In this document: piece by piece, positions 18,152 through 35,868 of the stretch
Numbering within the stretch: position 1 is the first letter of the stretch
How the letters are laid out: each line of letters starts with the position of its first letter
Source: Sumerlaeia bacterium
GTDB lineage: Bacteria > Sumerlaeota > Sumerlaeia > SLMS01 > JAHLLQ01
DNA length: 64,000 nucleotides
NCBI GenBank assembly: GCA_040219255.1
Contig: JAVJSW010000049.1
Coordinates: 176,893-240,892, forward strand
Reading direction: 5' to 3'
Translations under genes and position numbers: made by a program
The notes under the pieces: model-generated
Database searches by the model: none
What the model was told of the DNA's origin: nothing
What the model saw: the letters and a program-made list of their open reading frames with translations, nothing else

Positions 18152-18850
18152 ATGATCGTCTTCAAGTTTCTGCTGATCTGCGCGATGGCCGCCTGGGCCG
18201 CATGGGAGGTCGATGGCTGGGTTGCGCGATTGCTGCTTTGCTGGTCGGCGTTCGCGTTTTTCTGGCTGGCGCTGGCCTATGCGGCGCGGCGGCCCGGGTG
18301 GCTTTTCAAAGATCCGGCCTCGGGGCGGTTGCGATGGCCGAGTTGGTTGTTGCTCGGGCCGTACCACACGCTCAACTTCGTGCTGATGGAGACGGTCGTG
18401 CGGTTTTCGCGCGAGAACCCCTGCGACGAGATCGTGCCGGGGCTTTGGCTGGGGCGGCGGCTGGTGGCGCGGGACCGGGCGATGGCTTGCGAGCGCGATT
18501 GGGCGGCGGTGCTGGATTGCACGGCGGAATTCCGCGAGCCGGATTTTCTCCACCCTGGCGACGGCTTACGCTACTTGAACCTGCGTATTCTGGACACCGG
18601 CGCCCCCACCGCCGGGGACATCGAGGCGGCGGTGCGGTTTCTCTGCGAGCGCCAGCAGAGCGGTCCGCTCTATGTCCACTGCGCCGCCGGCCACGGCCGC
18701 AGCGCCACGCTGGTGGCGGCGTACCTGATGCGGCGTGGGCTGGCGGCGACGATGGAGGACGCCGAAGCCCTGATCCGCGAGAAACGCCCCGGGGCGCGGC
18801 TGCACGGGAATCAGCGGCGGGCCTTGCGGGCGTGGGCGGGCGGTGGCTGA
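18152..18850 (+). CDS. Membrane-anchored dual-specificity protein phosphatase
   Basis: VHCAAGHGRSAT (HCx5R) plus N-terminal TM helices. Confidence 0.9.
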   Translation: MIVFKFLLICAMAAWAAWEVDGWVARLLLCWSAFAFFWLALAYAARRPGWLFKDPASGRLRWPSWLLLGPYHTLNFVLMETVVRFSRENPCDEIVPGLWLGRRLVARDRAMACERDWAAVLDCTAEFREPDFLHPGDGLRYLNLRILDTGAPTAGDIEAAVRFLCERQQSGPLYVHCAAGHGRSATLVAAYLMRRGLAATMEDAEALIREKRPGARLHGNQRRALRAWAGGG

Positions 18851-27051: not shown

Positions 27052-29069
27052 GGCGTCTTGTCCGCGGCGATCTCCGCGAACACCTCCTCGAAAATCGGCC
27101 CCAGGTACTTCTCCGCACCATAGCGCGTCAGATGGTTGTCGTCGCGGTAGTGTGAGCGTTCGGAGTAGATCTCCAGCCGGCCCTCGGAATTGTCGAAGAA
27201 TGCCAGGGTTGGATCGATGACGGTCAGGTTGGGGTGATCGCCCAGGTTTTTCAGGACACTCTCGAAACAGGCCTGCCGCTTCTCGTGCTCGGCTCGTGTG
27301 GTGGTGTAGCGTTCCATACTGTTGAAGAGCGGGTAGCGGAACGTGTAGGAAAAATGCCGCGCGGTGTGATAGTTGTCCGTCTCGGGAACCTGCTTCAGGA
27401 GCCAGACGCGCACTCCAGCATCCTCCAGAGTCACGATCATCCCTCGCAGGTGTTCCTCCAGAACGGCCTCCGCGTGGCTTTCCGTAATGCGATCCAGGCT
27501 CATCTTTGGGTCATCGGTGACAAGGGTGCCCTTGGGCGACTTGCCCAGTTCGACGCGCAGTTGGCTCTGTCCGGAACAGGAGACGGACCATCGTTTCACC
27601 AGGATGACGTCCGATACACCTCGTTCGAAGATTCCCGTTAAGGTCGCGGCGTTCGTCTCAAGCGCCCAGGCACGCTCCTTTGGCGTGGAATCGACTCGCC
27701 AGAGGCCGGGAATAGGCGTTGAGCCTCCTTCAAGATAGGCCTCCCCCCGCAAGCCCGCTTCGGCTGCTTTGCGGTCAACCATGTCGGAAATGGCGAGCGC
27801 GTGGCTGTCGCCCCAAAACACGAAGTCCGGCGGGGCGTTGGCCGTGGAGGCCTCGGCGCCGATGGGGACGGGCTCGCCGTCCTCGCCCATGCTGAACTCG
27901 CGGCCTCTCCAGTCGATGTCCTCACGATAGATGGCAAACCGGTCGTCGAGTCCCGGTCTTTTCGAATACCCCAACACCCCCACTGCCGCCACCAGCAACC
28001 CCGCCGTGACGGCGCCTCCGAAGGCGAAAGCGCTCTTCCGGGTCTTCAGCACCGTCTTGCGGCGGAACGGGTTTTCGATGAACTTCCACGATAGCACCGA
28101 CATCCCGAACGACAGCGCCAGGATCGCCGCCAGCGCCACCCCGTCACGCTCGATCAGGACGTAGTTTCCGAACACCAGCAGCGGCCAGTGCCACAGATAG
28201 AGCGAGTACGAAATCAGACCCACAAAGACCATAGGCCTCCACGCCAGAAGCCGCCCCGACCAGGTCAGCCCCTGCGTATTCGCCCCCATCACCAGAACGG
28301 CCCCCAGGACCGGCACGACGGCGTAGGCGCCGGGGAAGGGCAGGGACTCATCGAACACCAGCATCGACAGTACAATCAGCCCCAGGCCTGCCGCCGAGAG
28401 CAATTCCCGCACGTCGCCGCGCCATCGCAGGTCCCGCTGCTTGACACTCAAGAGCGCCCCCGCCAGCAGCTCCCACGCGCGGAACGGCAGCCACAAGAAA
28501 GCCAGTTTCTGGTGCGAATCGGTCATCAGGATGGACAGGAGCAGACTCGCCGCCAGCAGTCCCCCGAACACCGGCAGCAGCCATCGCCGCCCCGCCCGGA
28601 AGCAACCCAAGGTCAGCAGCGGAAAGAGCAGATAGAACTGCTCCTCCACCGCCAGCGACCACGTGTGCAGCAGCAACTTCATCTCCGCTTCCTGAGCGAA
28701 ATAGCCATCATCGGCGGCGAAATAAAAGTTCGCCCCCATCACCGACTGCGCGATGGCCGACTCGGCCAGCAGGCGCAGGTCCTCCGAGTCCAGAAGCCAA
28801 AGCCCCGCACCCAGCACACACAACACCATCGCCGCCAGGGCAGGCAAAATCCGCCGGATGCGCCGCACCCAGAAATTCGCTAGAGAAAAATCGCCGCGTT
28901 CCAGGTCCCGCAAAATGATCGACGTGATCAGGAATCCCGAAATCACAAAGAACACATCCACACCCACGTACCCGCCCCGAAACCCCAGGTCCGCGTGAAA
29001 CAGCACCACACCCAGCACGGCCACGGCCCGCAGACCGTCGATATCGGGGCGATAGGCGATGTTCGACAT
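27048..29069 (-). CDS. Acyltransferase-3 plus SGNH domain O-acetyltransferase (OafA/OatA-like)
   Basis: YRPDIDGLRAVAV, GVDVFFVISGFLIT, HTWSLAVEEQFY, GDSHA, YRDDNHL. Confidence 0.93.
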   Translation of the reverse strand: MSNIAYRPDIDGLRAVAVLGVVLFHADLGFRGGYVGVDVFFVISGFLITSIILRDLERGDFSLANFWVRRIRRILPALAAMVLCVLGAGLWLLDSEDLRLLAESAIAQSVMGANFYFAADDGYFAQEAEMKLLLHTWSLAVEEQFYLLFPLLTLGCFRAGRRWLLPVFGGLLAASLLLSILMTDSHQKLAFLWLPFRAWELLAGALLSVKQRDLRWRGDVRELLSAAGLGLIVLSMLVFDESLPFPGAYAVVPVLGAVLVMGANTQGLTWSGRLLAWRPMVFVGLISYSLYLWHWPLLVFGNYVLIERDGVALAAILALSFGMSVLSWKFIENPFRRKTVLKTRKSAFAFGGAVTAGLLVAAVGVLGYSKRPGLDDRFAIYREDIDWRGREFSMGEDGEPVPIGAEASTANAPPDFVFWGDSHALAISDMVDRKAAEAGLRGEAYLEGGSTPIPGLWRVDSTPKERAWALETNAATLTGIFERGVSDVILVKRWSVSCSGQSQLRVELGKSPKGTLVTDDPKMSLDRITESHAEAVLEEHLRGMIVTLEDAGVRVWLLKQVPETDNYHTARHFSYTFRYPLFNSMERYTTTRAEHEKRQACFESVLKNLGDHPNLTVIDPTLAFFDNSEGRLEIYSERSHYRDDNHLTRYGAEKYLGPIFEEVFAEIAADKTP

Positions 29070-29266
29070 GGACAGGGCGCGACTCTCTAGGGTGGGCAAC
29101 GGATCGTTTCTCGCTTGTAAGCCCCCACGCCCCGTTCAGTGCAACCGCGAACCGCCCCCGCGCCCACGGAAATCGCCCCGCGCGCCATTCCCCCTTGCGC
29201 CCCGGCGCCCCGCGTCCGCTATGACAGGTCGCAACAATTCGGACTACGTGAGGATACGATCGGCTC

Positions 29267-30148
29267 ATGGCCATTCTTGTCACAGAAAACACCCGCCTGA
29301 TGATCCAGGGCATTACCGGCCGCGAAGGCCAGTTCCACGGCCGGCAAATGCTCGACTACGGCACCAAGGTCGTCGCCGGCGTCACCCCCGGCAAAGGCGG
29401 CCAGACCGCCCTCGGCACCGTCCCCGTCTTCAACACCGTCCAGGCCGCCGTCGACGAAACCGGCGCCAACACCACCATCATCTACGTCCCCCCGGCCTTC
29501 GCCGCCGACGCCGCCCTCGAAGCCATCGAAGCCAACCTCGACCTCGTCATCATCATCACCGAAGGCATCCCCACGCTCCAGATGATGACCGTCTATCATG
29601 AAGCCAAGCGCCGCGGCGTCGTCGTCATCGGCCCCAACTGCCCCGGCGTCATCAGCCCCGGCATCGCCAAAATCGGCATCATGCCCGGCCACATCCACAA
29701 ACCCGGCCGCGTCGGCCTCATCAGCCGCTCCGGCACCCTGACCTACGAAGTCGTCGACGCCCTCACCAAAGCCGGCGTCGGCCAGAGCACCTGCGTCGGC
29801 ATTGGCGGCGACCCCATCATCGGCTCCACCTTCGTGGATATCCTCGCCCACTTTGAAAAAGACCCCGACACCGACGCCGTCGTCGTCATCGGCGAAATCG
29901 GCGGCACCGACGAACAAGACGCCGCCCGCTTTGCCAAAGAGCACATGACCAAGCCCTGCGTCGGCTTCATCGCCGGCCGCACCGCCCCCCCCGGCAAACG
30001 CATGGGCCACGCCGGCGCCATCATCAGCGGCGGCGAAGGCACCGCCCAGGAAAAACTCCAGGTCATGCGCGACAACGGCGTCGCCACCTGCGACCTCCCC
30101 AGCGAAGTCCCCGCCCGCATCCAGGAAGTCCTCGCAGCGCGGGTGTAA
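29267..30148 (+). CDS. sucD: Succinate-CoA ligase alpha subunit
   Basis: [41 protein letters not shown]. Confidence 0.98.
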
Positions 30149-30204
30149 GGCTCCGCCGCCCGTTCGTAGTCCCGCCGCCCGGCGGAAGAAAGTCACTCCA
30201 TCGC

Positions 30205-30250
30205 AAGCCGCCGCATTCTCCTTCAAGGCAGAGTGCGGCGGCTTTCTTTT
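30205..30250 (+). terminator. Intrinsic terminator of sucD
   Basis: AAGCCGCCGCATTCT...AGAGTGCGGCGGCTT stem plus T-rich tail. Confidence 0.85.
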
Positions 30251-30325
30251 CGTTCTTTCATCTTTACCTCTTGAGCAGATAGGCCGCATCGTTCGTCCAC
30301 CAGTTCAAGCCAAGAGGACGATCCG

Positions 30326-31708
30326 ATGTCCGACGAGAAGTTGCTCAGTAAGACGCTCACTTTCGGTGTGGGCTTCCCCTACGCTTTCAATGTCAGGAAG
30401 GGCACCATTGAACCCCTTCAGGATGATGTGCGGAAAGCGGTCTATGAACACATGCGGCGCGCATCCTGTGCGGTTGCCCAAGCCTGCAACATCGAAACCG
30501 CCAAACGGTACGTTCAGGTAACCCTCGGGATCGACAAGTCCCAGGAGGAAATTAAACCATCCAACCCCGCCCTGCGCAAGCGCGTTGCCGATTGTGACTG
30601 GATTGCCGGGGGAACTCTTTCCCAGTCCTATAAGCTGACGGACCCACACTTCGCGGGTGACCATGGTAAGGAGCTTATCACAGTCGGTTCGCGCCAACTC
30701 CCAACCCATCGCACCGACGGCTCCCATCCAATCCCTTTTCGCCATGATGGCACACGCCTTTTCCTGCATGAGAAGGCCTACTGGCTTTGCGTTCAATTGC
30801 TTGAAGTCAAGTACGCAAAAACCAACAATCTGCCCAATTGGCTGGCCTTTCCCATCATCGCCAAGAAACGGGACAAGACACTCAATGGTCAACTCCAGCG
30901 GCTGACCACCGGGGAATGGATGCTACGCAATTCGCGCCTCGCCCGGAACATGCGCCGCAAAGGCCCCCGGTGGAATGGCCAGGTCGTCCTGCAGTACAAA
31001 CCCGAACCGTACAAGACCCTCAATCCCGGCGTCGTGATGGGGATCGACCTGGGGGTCAATGCGCCGGCCGCCATCCATATTCGCCCCCAGGGCTCGGAAG
31101 CCGGTGAGCATTGGGCCATGATCGTCGGCAACGGTCGCCAACTTCTTGCCTCGCGCAATGTCATCCGGTCGGAAATCCGAACTATCGTCCGCGGCCTCCG
31201 CGCCAAAGACAGCGGCCTCATCGGGGGCGCCCGCGCTCAGGCCCAGGAACGACTCCGTGACCTTCGCAAAAAGGAAAAAGCCATCATCAAGACCGGCTCT
31301 CAGCGAATCGCCAAACAAATCGCCGAGGCCGCCCGCCGCAATGGCGCTGGGACGTGGCAACTGGAAGACCTGAAGCTCAAGGGTGGGCTCAAGGAAGACA
31401 GTTGGCTGGCCCGCAATTGGGCGCCGGGGACCCTGATCGACGCCATTCGATGGAACGCGCAGAAACTTGGCGTGAGCCTCGTGCTCGTCAATCCGGCTTA
31501 CACGTCCCAGCGCTGCGCCAAGTGTGGCCACATTTCCCGGGCGAATCGCCCCAAGGCCAGCAAAGGGCAGGAGCACTTTCAATGTGTCGCCTGTGGCCGC
31601 AAAGAAAACGCCGACAAGAACGCCGCCAGAAATCTGTCCATCACCGGCATTCAGGACTTGATCGCTGCCACGGTTCCGCCTAAAGAAGAGTCCAATGGCT
31701 CTGAATAG
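30326..31708 (+). CDS. cas12f: Compact type V CRISPR effector, Cas12f1/TnpB-like RNA-guided nuclease (460 aa)
   Basis: RuvC-I MGIDLG (D241), RuvC-II GTWQLEDL (E347), zinc ribbon YTSQRCAKCG..FQCVACG, RuvC-III NADKNAARNL (D430); directly upstream of a CRISPR array; no tnpA adjacent. Confidence 0.88.
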   Translation: MSDEKLLSKTLTFGVGFPYAFNVRKGTIEPLQDDVRKAVYEHMRRASCAVAQACNIETAKRYVQVTLGIDKSQEEIKPSNPALRKRVADCDWIAGGTLSQSYKLTDPHFAGDHGKELITVGSRQLPTHRTDGSHPIPFRHDGTRLFLHEKAYWLCVQLLEVKYAKTNNLPNWLAFPIIAKKRDKTLNGQLQRLTTGEWMLRNSRLARNMRRKGPRWNGQVVLQYKPEPYKTLNPGVVMGIDLGVNAPAAIHIRPQGSEAGEHWAMIVGNGRQLLASRNVIRSEIRTIVRGLRAKDSGLIGGARAQAQERLRDLRKKEKAIIKTGSQRIAKQIAEAARRNGAGTWQLEDLKLKGGLKEDSWLARNWAPGTLIDAIRWNAQKLGVSLVLVNPAYTSQRCAKCGHISRANRPKASKGQEHFQCVACGRKENADKNAARNLSITGIQDLIAATVPPKEESNGSE

Positions 31709-32046
31709 AGCAGTTCGCCTGGGTGAATTGGAATCTCGCGATTCCTCTTCGGCTGGACGTGTGGCCTTCTCGCAGGCCAATCGGACCGGACCACTCCGGA
31801 GAGTGAATCCGGATCCGGAAGTCGCTTCTCGCAAGCGATGGCTGTCCCGATATCGGGACATGATACCTCGATTTCTTCCGCCAACCCCAAGCCAACAGGC
31901 TAAACCGGGGAGGACGGCGAAAACTGAAATCGTTGAGCTTAGGCGAAATTCTGAGCCCTGTGCATGGCGTCGGAAGGAGGGTCAAGGCGAGGTCGGCGAT
32001 GCCGCTAATCTTCGCCCCTGAGTTTGTTGACTTTGAGACATGGGCG
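31709..32046 (+). ncRNA. Putative tracrRNA plus short leader
   Basis: Nearly continuous hairpins; 31949-31970 complementary to the repeat; CCTCT at 31744-31748 complementary to the repeat 3' end AGAGG; boundaries unknown. Confidence 0.65.
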
Positions 32047-32877
32047 GTCGCAACTCGCGCTTAGGCAGGGATCAGAGGGGAAAGCTCCAGCACCGCCGGA
32101 CCGCCCCCGTCGCCCGTCGCAACTCGCGCTTAGGCAGGGATCAGAGGGAGTACACGCTGCTCGATCCGCCGCTGAACATCAAGTCGCAACTCGCGCTTAG
32201 GCAGGGATCAGAGGTGTAAGCAACTACTCAGAGACGCAGAGGAGAAAGAGTCGCAACTCGCGCTTAGGCAGGGATCAGAGGAACGTTTTGCCACACGGTT
32301 CGCAGTTCGGCATCCGTCGCAACTCGCGCTTAGGCAGGGATCAGAGGTTTTCTTCGACCCTTGGCATCATGAGCGAGAAATGTCGCAACTCGCGCTTAGG
32401 CAGGGATCAGAGGAACGGCTGGGTCAAATAACGTCAAGCGGTACGCGTCGCAACTCGCGCTTAGGCAGGGATCAGAGGCTCTTCTCCCGGAAGGAAATCA
32501 CCGAATTGCGAGGTCGCAACTCGCGCTTAGGCAGGGATCAGAGGAACGTCGACCCGGATGGGCACGAGAAGCACGTCCGTCGCAACTCGCGCTTAGGCAG
32601 GGATCAGAGGGAGATGCCAACGGGCGAGACCACCCCAAGACGATAGAGTCGCAACTCGCGCTTAGGCAGGGATCAGAGGACCATCACGGCGGTGGCGGCA
32701 TAATGGCTGAGCGTCGCAACTCGCGCTTAGGCAGGGATCAGAGGGGTGTCCAGGTAGGTGTTGTGCAGCCCGGCCCCCGTCGCAACTCGCGCTTAGGCAG
32801 GGATCAGAGGACGGCTCGCCGGTTCGTACGCGCAACCAGCGCCAGGTCGCAACTTGCGCCCAGGCAGGCATCAGCCC
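32047..32877 (+). CRISPR. CRISPR array: 12 identical 32-bp repeats plus 1 degenerate terminal repeat, 12 unique spacers of 33-37 bp
   Basis: Repeat GTCGCAACTCGCGCTTAGGCAGGGATCAGAGG at 32047, 32116, 32183, 32250, 32316, 32382, 32447, 32513, 32579, 32648, 32713, 32779; degenerate copy at 32846 implies + orientation. Confidence 0.99.
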
Positions 32878-32928
32878 CCCCCACACCGTTAAAACCCACA
32901 AGTTTAACCGCCCTTTGTCACGCGACAG
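32875..32928 (+). repeat. Left copy of ~54-bp inverted repeat flanking acnA
   Basis: C8-ACACCGTTAAAACCCACAAGTTTAACCGCCCT-ttg-TCACGCGACAG; reverse complement of 36003-36056. Confidence 0.9.
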
Positions 32929-33177
32929 GCCCGGCCGTTTCTCGTAGCTTGCTCTCCAGTTCGCTGCGAAGGAGAGGGCCCCATGCTCAGGAACCCGTTC
33001 ACCCGATCCAGGTGCCGCCGTGGGGCGGCGTGCGCGCGGGCGCCAACACCCGCTTGCGTCCGCCGCACGGTTCTCGCTAAAGCCTTGTGTCATCGGCGGC
33101 GCCCGTTCGCGGGCGAGCAGGCCCTGTGCGCCGCGCGGTGAACTCAACACGTGTACCCTAAGATCAAGGATCGTCCC

Positions 33178-35868
<2,691 letters not shown>

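What the first reader, a model, noticed from the sequence alone, without database searches (positions are those of the whole stretch)
31709..31980. Candidate long tracrRNA with two-part repeat pairing
Seen: back-to-back stems from 3 nt after the stop codon. These are CAGTTCGC/GTGAATTG (31711-31730), GAATC/GATTC, GGCCT/AGGCC, CACTC/GAGTG within CCGGA/TCCGG, TCGCTT/AAGCGA, a perfect 18-bp palindrome TGTCCCGATATCGGGACA (31843-31860), and nested CGATTTC..CGCC..CCCC..AGCC/GGCT..GGGG..GGCG..GAAATCG. TTCTGAGCCCTGT (31949-31961) pairs with repeat GCAGGGATCAGAG at 12 of 13 positions (G-U allowed), and GGCGT (31966-31970) extends the pairing to repeat GCGCT. CCTCT (31744-31748) complements the final AGAGG. 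Known: Cas12f and Cas12k guides use a repeat:anti-repeat duplex plus a short long-range pairing with the repeat 3' end. Inference: this is the scaffold needed to build an sgRNA. Caveats: a 5-nt match can arise by chance, and the anti-repeat can alternatively fold with GCTTAGG at 31937.
Basis: partly seen in the sequence, partly recalled or inferred. Interest (0 to 1): 0.8.

Follow-up and report, generated by a model that had tools for sequence, protein, structure and literature searches.

The report
Cas12f tracrRNA overlapping borrowed CRISPR leader

Summary
A 460-aa Cas12f1-type gene (30326-31708, +; best solved relatives AsCas12f) is followed by 338 nt of non-coding DNA and a 13-repeat array (32047-32877). 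The non-coding stretch is a conserved structured RNA. Four hairpins (31762-31860) and hairpin E covary in six related array-bearing loci: 94.6% of cells paired, 24 of 43 pairs compensatory, slid controls 30-44%. So "tracrRNA with two-part repeat pairing" holds as a concept.

The named contacts fare worse:
- CCTCT (31744-48) is not conserved even in the closest relative, which has the same repeat end.
- The 31949-31970 anti-repeat is real complementarity, but it is not conserved in position and depends on the chance control used.
- The supported contacts are the 8 nt directly after the palindrome (31861-68 with repeat nt 21-28, strong covariation) and GCTTAGGCG (31937-45 with nt 12-20, moderate support). 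They flank hairpin E.

Unexpectedly, 31879-32046 has the layout of type I-C CRISPR leaders, including the one in this genome. This suggests spacer uptake in trans.

No RNA data exist. It is a new member of a known kind. This scan has already noted split-anti-repeat Cas12f tracrRNAs in other genomes.

The parts
30326..31708 (+). cas12f1-type effector gene (460 aa, P0001). RuvC D241/E347/D430 and the CCCC zinc finger (C397, C400, C420, C423) are invariant in the family.
   Evidence: PDB phmmer best hits are AsCas12f 8j3r/8j12/7wju, E 2e-29 to 3e-27 over residues 95-450. Pfam Cas12f1-like_TNB 1.5e-17. NCBIfam guided_TnpB 106 bits, above its cut-off of 100; Cas12f2 95 bits, below its cut-off of 450. 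Invariant columns from 59 homologues.
31711..31744 (+). Two small hairpins just after the stop codon. They are window-specific and not part of the conserved core. CCTCT (31744-48) follows.
   Evidence: Sequence. The region upstream of stem A varies in length and sequence. CCTCT is not kept in L184.
31762..31779 (+). Stem A (TGGCCT / AGGCCA, 6 bp)
   Evidence: 100% of cells paired, 2 of 6 pairs compensatory. Recovered independently by RNAalifold.
31782..31817 (+). Stem B, a long imperfect hairpin (CGGA-CCGG ... CCGG-A-TCCG with inner CACTC/GAGTG)
   Evidence: 87.5% of cells paired, 5 of 8 tested pairs compensatory. RNAalifold.
31821..31839 (+). Stem C (GTCGCTT / AAGCGAT)
   Evidence: 100% of cells paired, 6 of 7 pairs compensatory. 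The stem is completely re-written in L184.
31843..31860 (+). Stem D (the 18-nt palindrome)
   Evidence: 97.6% of cells paired, 4 of 7 pairs compensatory.
31861..31868 (+). Short anti-repeat (AR-2), TGATACCT, pairing with repeat nt 28-21 (AGGGATCA). It abuts stem D. A window-specific alternative register is CCTCGATTTCT (31866-76) with nt 21-32.
   Evidence: 8 column pairs, 6 of them with changes on both sides, 91.7% of cells paired in six loci. The cognate assignment ranks 1 of 120 permutations. Unconstrained cofold places the repeat's 3' part here in 6 of 6 loci.
31869..31932 (+). Hairpin E (outer stem CGATTTC/GAAATCG; core CGCCAAC...GACGGCG, 31879-31919). The core is also the first element of a type I-C-style CRISPR leader.
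   Evidence: Covariance-model hits to the hairpin alone lie in leaders of arrays with I-C-type repeats, including this genome's own I-C locus. There is a 14-nt identity with the own I-C leader.
31937..31945 (+). Long anti-repeat, part a (AR-1): GCTTAGGCG pairing with repeat nt 20-12
   Evidence: 9 bp in the unconstrained cofold, ensemble probability 0.62. L184 has GTGTTTACAC at the same distance (about 110-102 nt before the first repeat), with 2 compensatory changes, continued by AGTTGCGAC pairing with nt 1-9. As aligned, 74.1% of cells pair against 22-54% when slid.
31949..31975 (+). On its own it folds into a 9-bp local hairpin. Its status is open.
31879..32046 (+). CRISPR leader of type I-C layout (168 nt), with a second copy of the hairpin's 3' arm (GTCGGCG, 31992-98) 55 nt before the first repeat
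   Evidence: Same spacings in 6 of 6 Cas12f-family loci and in 9 I-C leaders. Collinear alignment with the own I-C leader.
32047..32877 (+). CRISPR array: 12 identical 32-nt repeats plus one degenerate terminal repeat (32846-77). Spacers are 33-37 nt.
   Evidence: The repeat occurs nowhere else in the genome.

Best explanation
31762 to about 31946 (possibly to about 31975), + strand, encodes the tracrRNA of a type V-F1 (Cas12f1, AsCas12f-like) CRISPR system.

Proposed anatomy:
- Four hairpins A-D (31762-31860) form the protein-binding scaffold.
- The 8 nt directly after stem D (31861-68) pair with the guide-proximal part of the crRNA repeat (nt 21-28, leaving GAGG before the guide). This duplex probably stacks on stem D.
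- Hairpin E follows (31869-31932).
- GCTTAGGCG (31937-45) then pairs with repeat nt 12-20.

The repeat therefore lies across the base of hairpin E as a split anti-repeat (a three-way junction). This corresponds to the long and short repeat:anti-repeat duplexes described for AsCas12f1.

The part from hairpin E onward (31879-32046) is at the same time a CRISPR leader of the kind that precedes type I-C arrays.

Shown: conserved structure, covariation, complementarity and layout.
Inferred: transcription, RNA ends, binding by Cas12f, and stacking.
For: 1. Locus context. The Cas12f1-type gene has intact catalytic and zinc residues. The array lies on the same strand, with its degenerate repeat at the far end.

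2. The same gene - about 320-360 nt - array layout, with homologous 32-nt repeats, is found in L001, L164, L081 and L082. L184 has the scaffold and array but only a gene remnant.

3. RNAalifold on six sequences recovers stems A-E without guidance. It predicts 41 pairs, 20 of them compensatory, and leaves the post-D segment single-stranded.

4. Counting my structure on six array-bearing loci gives 94.6% of 258 cells paired, against 29.5-43.7% when slid. 24 of 43 pairs have changes on both sides, and 0 of 500 shuffles reach this (the five-locus version is).

5. The post-D:repeat helix has 6 of 8 pairs changed on both sides. W and L184 have TGAT:ATCA where the other four loci have CAAC or CGAT paired with GTTG. 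Cognate tracr-repeat pairing is the best of 120 permutations.

6. Unconstrained RNAcofold of scaffold plus bare repeat gives a split anti-repeat anchored right after stem D in 6 of 6 loci.

7. For AsCas12f1 and SpCas12f1, the tracrRNA (169 and 153 nt) is encoded between gene and array (PMC8548392, passages seen). AsCas12f1 has R:AR-1 and R:AR-2, with R:AR-2 coaxial with a stem (bioRxiv 10.1101/2023.07.03.547593, passages). A 5-7 bp short R/AR pseudoknot is described for Cas12f1 (PMC11246509, passages).
Against: - No RNA evidence. No sequencing run holding this DNA could be listed, so transcription, strand and ends are inferred.
- Folding energy favours neither strand. G-U against A-C cells give only a weak preference for the + strand (15 against 6).
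- Only six array-bearing loci are available. I drew the structure from the same sequences on which I counted it.
- L184's effector gene is reduced to a C-terminal remnant, so its RNA may no longer be under selection.
- AR-1 support is modest: 44 of 500 shuffles reach its pairing level, and the cognate test ranks 7 of 120.
- In W the three pairing schemes lie within 1.5 kcal/mol of one another.
- Hairpin E and everything after it also occur in I-C leaders that have no tracrRNA. Their conservation therefore cannot be credited to tracrRNA function.
- No promoter-like or terminator-like site was found on the + strand around the region.
Confidence: 0.8

Rival explanations
1. The main anti-repeat is 31949-61 (plus 31966-70), pairing with repeat nt 19-31 and 11-15. 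CCTCT at 31744-48 pairs with the final AGAGG.
For: - Complementarity is 12 of 13 plus 5 of 5.
- It is the strongest duplex within the intergenic region (-27.3 kcal/mol).
- Only 1 of 200 mononucleotide shuffles of the 72-nt interval does as well.
- Its ensemble probability in W is about 0.36.
- L184 and L081 each hold a second repeat-complementary segment just downstream of their AR-1 (GAATCCGCGTTG with nt 11-28; CCTTCAACC with nt 24-32). In a gapped hand alignment, the L184 segment shows two compensatory changes at repeat nt 21-22.
Against: - 12-14% of the wider controls do as well.
- As aligned, 53.8% of cells pair against 37-49% when slid.
- The cognate test ranks 22 of 120.
- It uses the same repeat bases as the covarying post-D segment.
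- It is absent from the unconstrained MFE with a bare repeat. It appeared only together with chance pairing to the spacer.
- In the free RNA it is locked in a local 9-bp hairpin.
- It lies inside the leader-type region.
- CCTCT is not conserved in L184, although the repeat end there is identical.
Confidence: 0.15
2. A short tracrRNA. The RNA ends at or before hairpin E (about 31762-31878) and contacts the repeat only through the post-D segment. Everything from 31879 on is purely a DNA-level leader (integration and promoter signals), and its complementarities to the repeat are incidental.
For: - Hairpin E, the second arm copy and their fixed spacing are shared with I-C leaders that have no tracrRNA.
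- In L001, L164 and L082, the post-D segment alone is collinear with repeat nt 10/13-28, giving 13-16 bp.
- I-C leaders also show chance-level complementarity to their own repeats.
Against: - In W and L184 the post-D contact is only 6-8 bp (11 bp in W's alternative register).
- L184, L081 and L164 carry strong anti-repeats to the 5' two-thirds of their repeats inside the leader interval. The energies are -25.8, -20.4 and -24.5 kcal/mol (L081's strongest duplex in that interval, -23.6, is a second site pairing with nt 9-32). The best duplex of each interval was matched by 0, 3.5% and 2.5% of 200 shuffles.
- Known Cas12f1 tracrRNAs are 153-169 nt and carry a long anti-repeat at their 3' end (PMC8548392, passages).
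Confidence: 0.15
3. Not a guide-scaffold RNA at all. It would be a structured 3' UTR or terminator region of cas12f, or a decayed relic with no current function.
For: No expression data. No cas1/cas2 next to the locus. One relative (L162) has gene and scaffold but no array within 1 kb. Another (L184) has array and scaffold but only a gene remnant.
Against: - Covariation spans loci whose proteins share 42-53% identity with the window's protein.
- Intermolecular covariation with the repeat cannot be explained by a UTR or a terminator.
- The effector is intact and the 12 repeats are identical.
Confidence: 0.04

Closest known systems
tracrRNA of AsCas12f1 / SpCas12f1 (type V-F1, former V-U3 group)
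   Same: - Encoded between a roughly 420-500-aa cas12f1 gene and its array on the same strand.
- Long and multi-stem.
- Contacts the repeat through a long and a short anti-repeat, the short one stacking on a stem.
- No adaptation genes at the locus.
- The effector is the closest solved relative by sequence.
   Different: - The protein is a distant relative: phmmer E about 1e-28, in a separate clade of about 59 metagenomic proteins at 40-64% identity.
- No Rfam family matches.
- I could not compare RNA sequences, because the AsCas12f RNA was not available from any tool.
- Here four stems precede the short anti-repeat, and the long anti-repeat sits inside a leader of type I-C layout.
Cas12f loci of Clostridia (for example locus L010 from an Oscillibacter MAG). 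That these belong to the group of published OsCas12f1/RhCas12f1 editors is my recollection, not a tool result.
   Same: The 32-nt repeat is homologous to the family's (GTTGCAAC... at the 5' end...TTGAAGG at the 3' end). A hairpin-E-like element (TGCGAACC...GGTTCGCA) lies between gene and array.
   Different: Protein identity is only 24-31%. The covariance model matches only hairpin E with confidence, not stems A-D. The hairpin overlaps the end of the gene.
TnpB omega-RNA (ISDra2 type)
   Same: A structured RNA starts at the 3' end of a TnpB-fold nuclease gene and carries the guide-proximal scaffold. NCBIfam guided_TnpB scores just above its cut-off.
   Different: Here guide and scaffold are split between an array-derived crRNA and a separate anti-repeat-bearing RNA. 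There are no transposon ends, and the copy is single in the genome.
Type IV-A3 systems that acquire spacers in trans through a co-resident type I-E adaptation module (bioRxiv 10.1101/2023.06.23.546257; search listing and abstract only)
   Same: An effector-plus-array locus without cas1/cas2, whose leader and repeat resemble those of a co-resident type I system.
   Different: A different effector class. For the present locus, uptake in trans is inferred only from leader and repeat similarity.

Membership tests
tracrRNA of type V-F1 (Cas12f1) systems | Encoded next to a cas12f gene and its CRISPR array | tested here: met
   Gene 30326-31708, RNA region 31762-31975, array 32047-32877, all on the + strand.
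tracrRNA of type V-F1 (Cas12f1) systems | Anti-repeat complementary to the cognate repeat, co-varying with it | tested here: met
   Post-D segment with repeat nt 21-28: 6 of 8 pairs changed on both sides, 91.7% of cells paired. The cognate assignment is the best of 120 permutations.
tracrRNA of type V-F1 (Cas12f1) systems | Two-part repeat contact (long R:AR-1 plus short R:AR-2) | tested here: inconclusive
A split contact is predicted in 6 of 6 loci. The long part is supported only moderately in the window: 74% paired against 22-54% when slid.
tracrRNA of type V-F1 (Cas12f1) systems | Conserved multi-stem scaffold | tested here: met
   RNAalifold: 41 pairs, 20 compensatory. Structure count: 24 of 43 pairs compensatory.
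tracrRNA of type V-F1 (Cas12f1) systems | Expressed as a discrete small RNA bound by the Cas12f dimer | not testable with these tools
   No sequencing run was listed. No complex prediction was attempted.
Cas12f1 effector (for the neighbouring gene) | 400-700 aa, TnpB-like RuvC with D-E-D and a CCCC zinc finger, homology to characterised Cas12f1 | tested here: met
   460 aa. AsCas12f chains at E 2e-29 over residues 95-450. D241, E347, D430 and four Cys are invariant in 59 homologues. The NCBIfam Cas12f2 model scores below its cut-off (95 against 450 bits), so subtype naming rests on the PDB relatives.
Type I-C-style CRISPR leader | Hairpin CGCGAACC...GGTTCGCG, a second GTTCGCG copy 54-55 nt before the first repeat, and fixed overall length | tested here: met
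   - W: hairpin start 168 nt, and GTCGGCG 55 nt, before the repeat.
- The 6 Cas12f loci: 166-168 nt and 54-55 nt.
- The 9 I-C leaders: 167-177 nt, with a matching copy at 54-55 nt in 7 of 9.
- The own-genome I-C leader carries the same sequence variant (CGCCAACC, GGTCGGCGAT).
Type I-C-style CRISPR leader | Lies directly downstream of cas2 of a type I-C operon | tested here: not met
   Here it follows cas12f and the scaffold. I-C cas1, cas2, cas4 and cas7 lie on contig C10, with a second cas1 about 205 kb away on the window's contig.

The most novel reading that the evidence does not exclude
This Cas12f clade has no adaptation genes of its own. It keeps its arrays supplied by carrying a complete type I-C-style leader and an I-C-like 32-nt repeat, so that the host's I-C Cas1-Cas2-Cas4 inserts spacers in trans.

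The tracrRNA gene has been built into that leader. The leader's first hairpin doubles as a tracrRNA stem, and the long anti-repeat sits in the leader's variable interval.

Within this genome, the leader motif variant (CGCCAACC / GGTCGGCG) is shared by the I-C and the Cas12f leaders. That would reflect a common trans-acting reader or gene conversion.
Probability: 0.4. Interest if true: 0.6.

Novelty: new member of a known kind. Interest (0 to 1): 0.45.

Why it matters
Miniature Cas12f nucleases are sought as genome-editing tools. Their usefulness depends on knowing the exact guide scaffold.

For a so far uncharacterised 445-515-aa clade, this work gives a covariation-backed map of which stems and which repeat contacts to keep in a single-guide design. 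It also warns that the thermodynamically most obvious anti-repeat is probably not the conserved one.

The side result suggests how adaptation-less type V-F loci stay supplied with spacers: the array uses a leader and repeat of type I-C style, matching the co-resident I-C system down to a genome-specific motif variant. This is testable.

Tried and rejected
- Sequencing runs: none was listed and no RNA holder was listed.
- Rfam on 29000-34000 at E up to 1: only a sub-threshold Ocean-VII match inside the array.
- The search for related loci:
  - With the single protein in genome contigs: no relative.
Only L001, L081 and L082 of 160 loci belong to the family.
  - In viral contigs: L175 has the same sequence as L081, and L176 has no scaffold downstream.
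- Protein searches of whole genomes found few further members: 2 of 75 (own phylum), 2 of 401 (order of G075), 1 of 401 (phylum of G075) and 2 of 276 (family of G075), the query genomes included.
- Weak full-length and partial covariance-model hits in G043 and G047 turned out to be unrelated hairpins without arrays.
- The array against the phage collection (megablast): no protospacer, so no PAM could be read.
- Promoter and terminator scan: nothing on the + strand near the region.
- My first attempt to force the split model used AR-1 one base out of register and gave a misleading -85.6 kcal/mol. This was corrected.
- A possible solitary repeat in L162 (GGAGTCG complementary to its post-D segment) lies among REP-like palindromes beside a RAYT-like gene. 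I did not count it as evidence.
- Literature searches for Cas12f with Planctomycetota/Sumerlaeota/Pirellulales, and for Cas12f with I-C leader or adaptation in trans, listed nothing on this clade or on I-C leaders at Cas12f arrays. This is not proof that none is in print. Supplements were not seen.

Full report
**What is there.** The window holds a 460-aa open reading frame (30326-31708, +). Its best solved relatives are AsCas12f chains: 8j3r, 8j12 and 7wju, E 2e-29 to 3e-27 over residues 95-450. It also has a Cas12f1-like TNB domain. NCBIfam's guided_TnpB model scores just above its cut-off, and its Cas12f2 model scores far below.

The gene lies between sucD-like and aconitase-like genes, with no cas1, cas2 or cas4 beside it. 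After 338 non-coding bases comes a CRISPR array: 12 identical 32-nt repeats and one degenerate terminal repeat, with spacers of 33-37 nt. Gene and repeat are each single in the 5.35-Mb assembly.

**The observation.** The stretch folds better than 200 of 200 shuffles, but so does its complement.

The 12-of-13 complementarity of 31949-61 to repeat nt 19-31, and that of GGCGT to nt 11-15, are real. Their significance depends on the control:
- 12% of dinucleotide shuffles of 31935-32046, and 14% of random 112-nt pieces of this 64%-GC window, do as well.
- Only 1 of 200 mononucleotide shuffles of the 72-nt interval does.

**Relatives.** The protein belongs to a tight family of about 59 metagenomic proteins (40-64% identity, 445-515 aa). 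A wide gap separates this family from ordinary TnpBs. Where sources name organisms, the names include Sumerlaeota, Sedimentisphaerales and Pirellulales.

I obtained DNA for the following loci:
- L001 (a Pirellulales MAG), L164, L081 and L082.
- L162, from the window's phylum: gene and scaffold are present, but no array within 1 kb.
- L184, found later through the RNA model, from the window's own taxonomic family. It holds a scaffold and an array of at least 19 repeats, but only the last 95 codons or so of the gene.

All array-bearing loci share the layout gene (or remnant) - about 320-360 nt - array, with homologous 32-nt repeats.

**The scaffold.** RNAalifold on six sequences, with no input from me, returns five helices. 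These are A (31762-79), B (31782-817), C (31821-39), D (31843-60) and the core of E (31879-919). It predicts 41 pairs, 20 of which keep pairing through changes on both sides, and it leaves the stretch after D unpaired.

I counted these helices, plus the pairing described below, on the six array-bearing loci:
- 94.6% of 258 cells are standard pairs, against 29.5-43.7% when the partners are slid by 1-3 columns.
- 24 of 43 pairs have double changes.
- No shuffle in 500 reaches these values (five loci).
- Stem C is entirely re-written between the window and L184, yet stays a hairpin.

Caveat: I drew the structure from the same few sequences, and kin are not independent.

**Where the repeat docks.** In every locus, the bases immediately 3' of stem D are complementary to repeat nt 20/21-28:

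| Locus | Post-D segment | Repeat segment |
|---|---|---|
| W | TGATACCT | AGGGATCA |
| L184 | TGATCC | GGATCA |
| L001 | CAACATGCA | TGCAGGTTG |
| L164 | CAACATAC | GTACGTTG |
| L081 | CGATCTGCAT | GTGCAGGTTG |
| L082 | CAACCCAT | ATGGGTTG |

- Six of eight column pairs change on both sides.
- The true tracr-repeat assignment is the best of 120 permutations.

The window and L184 differ from the rest in the repeat (ATCA in place of GTTG) and, correspondingly, in this segment (TGAT in place of CAAC or CGAT). I take this as the short, guide-proximal anti-repeat (AR-2). It abuts stem D, as R:AR-2 stacks on a stem in AsCas12f1 (passages).

The window also allows a private alternative register: CCTCGATTTCT with nt 21-32, 11 bp. 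L184 cannot form it.

The rest of the repeat pairs downstream of hairpin E. Unconstrained RNAcofold of scaffold plus bare repeat gives this split arrangement in 6 of 6 loci. In the window, GCTTAGGCG (31937-45) pairs with nt 12-20.
- L184 has GTGTTTACAC at the same distance from the array, about 110-102 nt. It carries two compensatory differences at repeat nt 14 and 15, and is continued by AGTTGCGAC pairing with nt 1-9.
- L164 and L081 have comparable sites.
- L001 and L082 are weak there, and instead extend the post-D pairing collinearly into the 5' arm of hairpin E.
- As aligned, the AR-1 columns pair in 74.1% of cells against 22-54% when slid. However, 44 of 500 shuffles reach that level, and the cognate test ranks 7 of 120.

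This contact is plausible, not proven.

CCTCT (31744-48) lies in the variable stretch before stem A. In L184, whose repeat ends identically, the aligned bases are GATGA.

For the 31949-70 site:
- It pairs in 53.8% of aligned cells against 37-49% when slid, and ranks 22 of 120 in the cognate test.
- It targets the same repeat bases as AR-2.
- In the free RNA it is folded into a 9-bp hairpin.
- It is not negligible. In the window, forcing it costs only 1.5 kcal/mol relative to the MFE (-103.9 against -105.4; AR-2 in the homologous register gives -104.8). It holds about 0.36 of the ensemble, against 0.62 for AR-1.
- L184 and L081 also carry a second repeat-complementary segment just after their AR-1.

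It may be a competing or processing-stage pairing, or chance.

**An unexpected layer: the leader.** Searching the window's own genome with the covariance model hit a second copy of hairpin E. It lies in the leader of an array that follows cas7-cas4-cas1-cas2 genes. Cas1 scores above NCBIfam's type I-C cut-off (486 against 385 bits), and Cas7/Csd2 sits at its cut-off.

Across the 75 genomes of the phylum, the model found hairpin-E-only or partial matches in eleven further genomes.
- Of ten hairpin-E loci examined (the own genome's I-C locus and nine from other genomes), nine show an array of I-C-type repeats 126-136 nt after the hairpin. The tenth contig ends too early.
- Weak hits in two further genomes (G043, G047) were examined separately and are unrelated hairpins without arrays.

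The layout is shared to the base:
- The hairpin starts 166-168 nt before the first repeat in all six Cas12f-family loci, and 167-177 nt before it in the nine I-C leaders.
- A second copy of its 3' arm (GTTCGCG) starts 54-55 nt before the repeat in 6 of 6 Cas12f-family loci and in 7 of 9 I-C leaders.

This genome's I-C leader and the window share a private variant: CGCCAACCCCAAGC, and GGTCGGCGAT at the second site. The two repeats are both 32 nt and 19 of 32 identical (3 of 20,000 shuffles reach this), with the same spacer lengths.

Type I-C cas1 was found in G000 (twice) and in G033, which holds L184's large array. It was not found in G072 (no array), G075 or G453; these are incomplete MAGs.

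So 31879-32046 is a CRISPR leader of I-C type. The conservation of hairpin E cannot be credited to the tracrRNA alone. I infer, but have not shown, that these Cas12f arrays are filled by I-C adaptation proteins in trans. The published analogue is type IV-A3 with I-E (listing and abstract only).

Hairpin-E-like elements and homologous repeats also occur at more distant Clostridial Cas12f loci.

**Comparison with the known.** Position, length, multi-stem build and two-part repeat contact match the tracrRNAs of AsCas12f1 and SpCas12f1 (PMC8548392; bioRxiv 10.1101/2023.07.03.547593; PMC11246509; passages only, supplements not seen).
- I could not compare RNA sequences with those systems.
- No Rfam family exists for it.
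- The scan has reported split-anti-repeat Cas12f tracrRNAs in other genomes, one of them with repeats resembling another CRISPR type. I did not test those notes.

**Verdict.** This is a real, conserved tracrRNA-type scaffold (confidence about 0.8) of a new Cas12f1 clade, and so a new member of a known kind. One of its two named contacts fails and the other is doubtful. The leader sharing is the most interesting by-product.

Noticed in passing
window 31879-32046; own genome contig C10 (locus L180, 823-1075, minus strand): The Cas12f array's upstream 168 nt and the leader of the genome's type I-C array are collinear. They share a genome-specific motif variant (CGCCAACCCCAAGC hairpin arm; GGTCGGCGAT 55 nt before the repeat). 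Both repeats are 32 nt and 19 of 32 identical, with the same spacer lengths.
   Followed up: yes
loci L185-L188 and L190-L193 (genomes of the window's phylum) and L195: Arrays with I-C-type repeats in this phylum have a very uniform leader. A hairpin CGCGAACC..GGTTCGCG starts 2-30 nt after the cas2 stop. A second GTTCGCG copy lies 54-55 nt before the first repeat. Total length is fixed at 167 or 176-177 nt. This gives three copies of one 7-8-mer (one inverted), which looks like a protein-binding layout. I know of no description of it.
   Followed up: partly
L184 (G033:C32), minus strand: The closest relative of the window's locus keeps the scaffold and an array of at least 19 identical repeats. 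The cas12f gene, however, is reduced to its last 95 codons or so (68% identical). No other match to the protein was found in that genome.
   Followed up: partly
L162 (G072:C143), minus strand, about 400 nt after the cas12f stop: This locus has gene and scaffold but no array within 1 kb. Instead there are REP-like palindromes, a RAYT/IS200-like ORF and a 26-nt tandem repeat. One palindrome-flanked 7-mer (GGAGTCG) is complementary to the locus's post-D segment. It could be a solitary repeat relic or chance.
   Followed up: no
own genome: G000:C49:1322-2335 (minus strand) and G000:C10:1492-2520 (minus strand): There are two type I-C cas1 genes, each near a contig end and each scoring about 486 bits. 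The one on the window's contig sits in a 565-codon open frame. This could be two I-C loci or one locus split by assembly.
   Followed up: no
L010 3949-4300 (Oscillibacter MAG); also L004, L093, L002, L084: Distant Cas12f loci of Clostridia carry a hairpin-E-like element (TGCGAACC..GGTTCGCA) at or overlapping the end of the gene. L010 has a 32-nt repeat homologous to the family's. The leader-type hairpin may therefore be widespread at Cas12f1 arrays.
   Followed up: partly
window 18296-18350 (+): This is the strongest chance-level duplex with the repeat in the whole window (-37 kcal/mol). It lies far from the locus and shows how easily GC-rich sequence mimics an anti-repeat.
   Followed up: no
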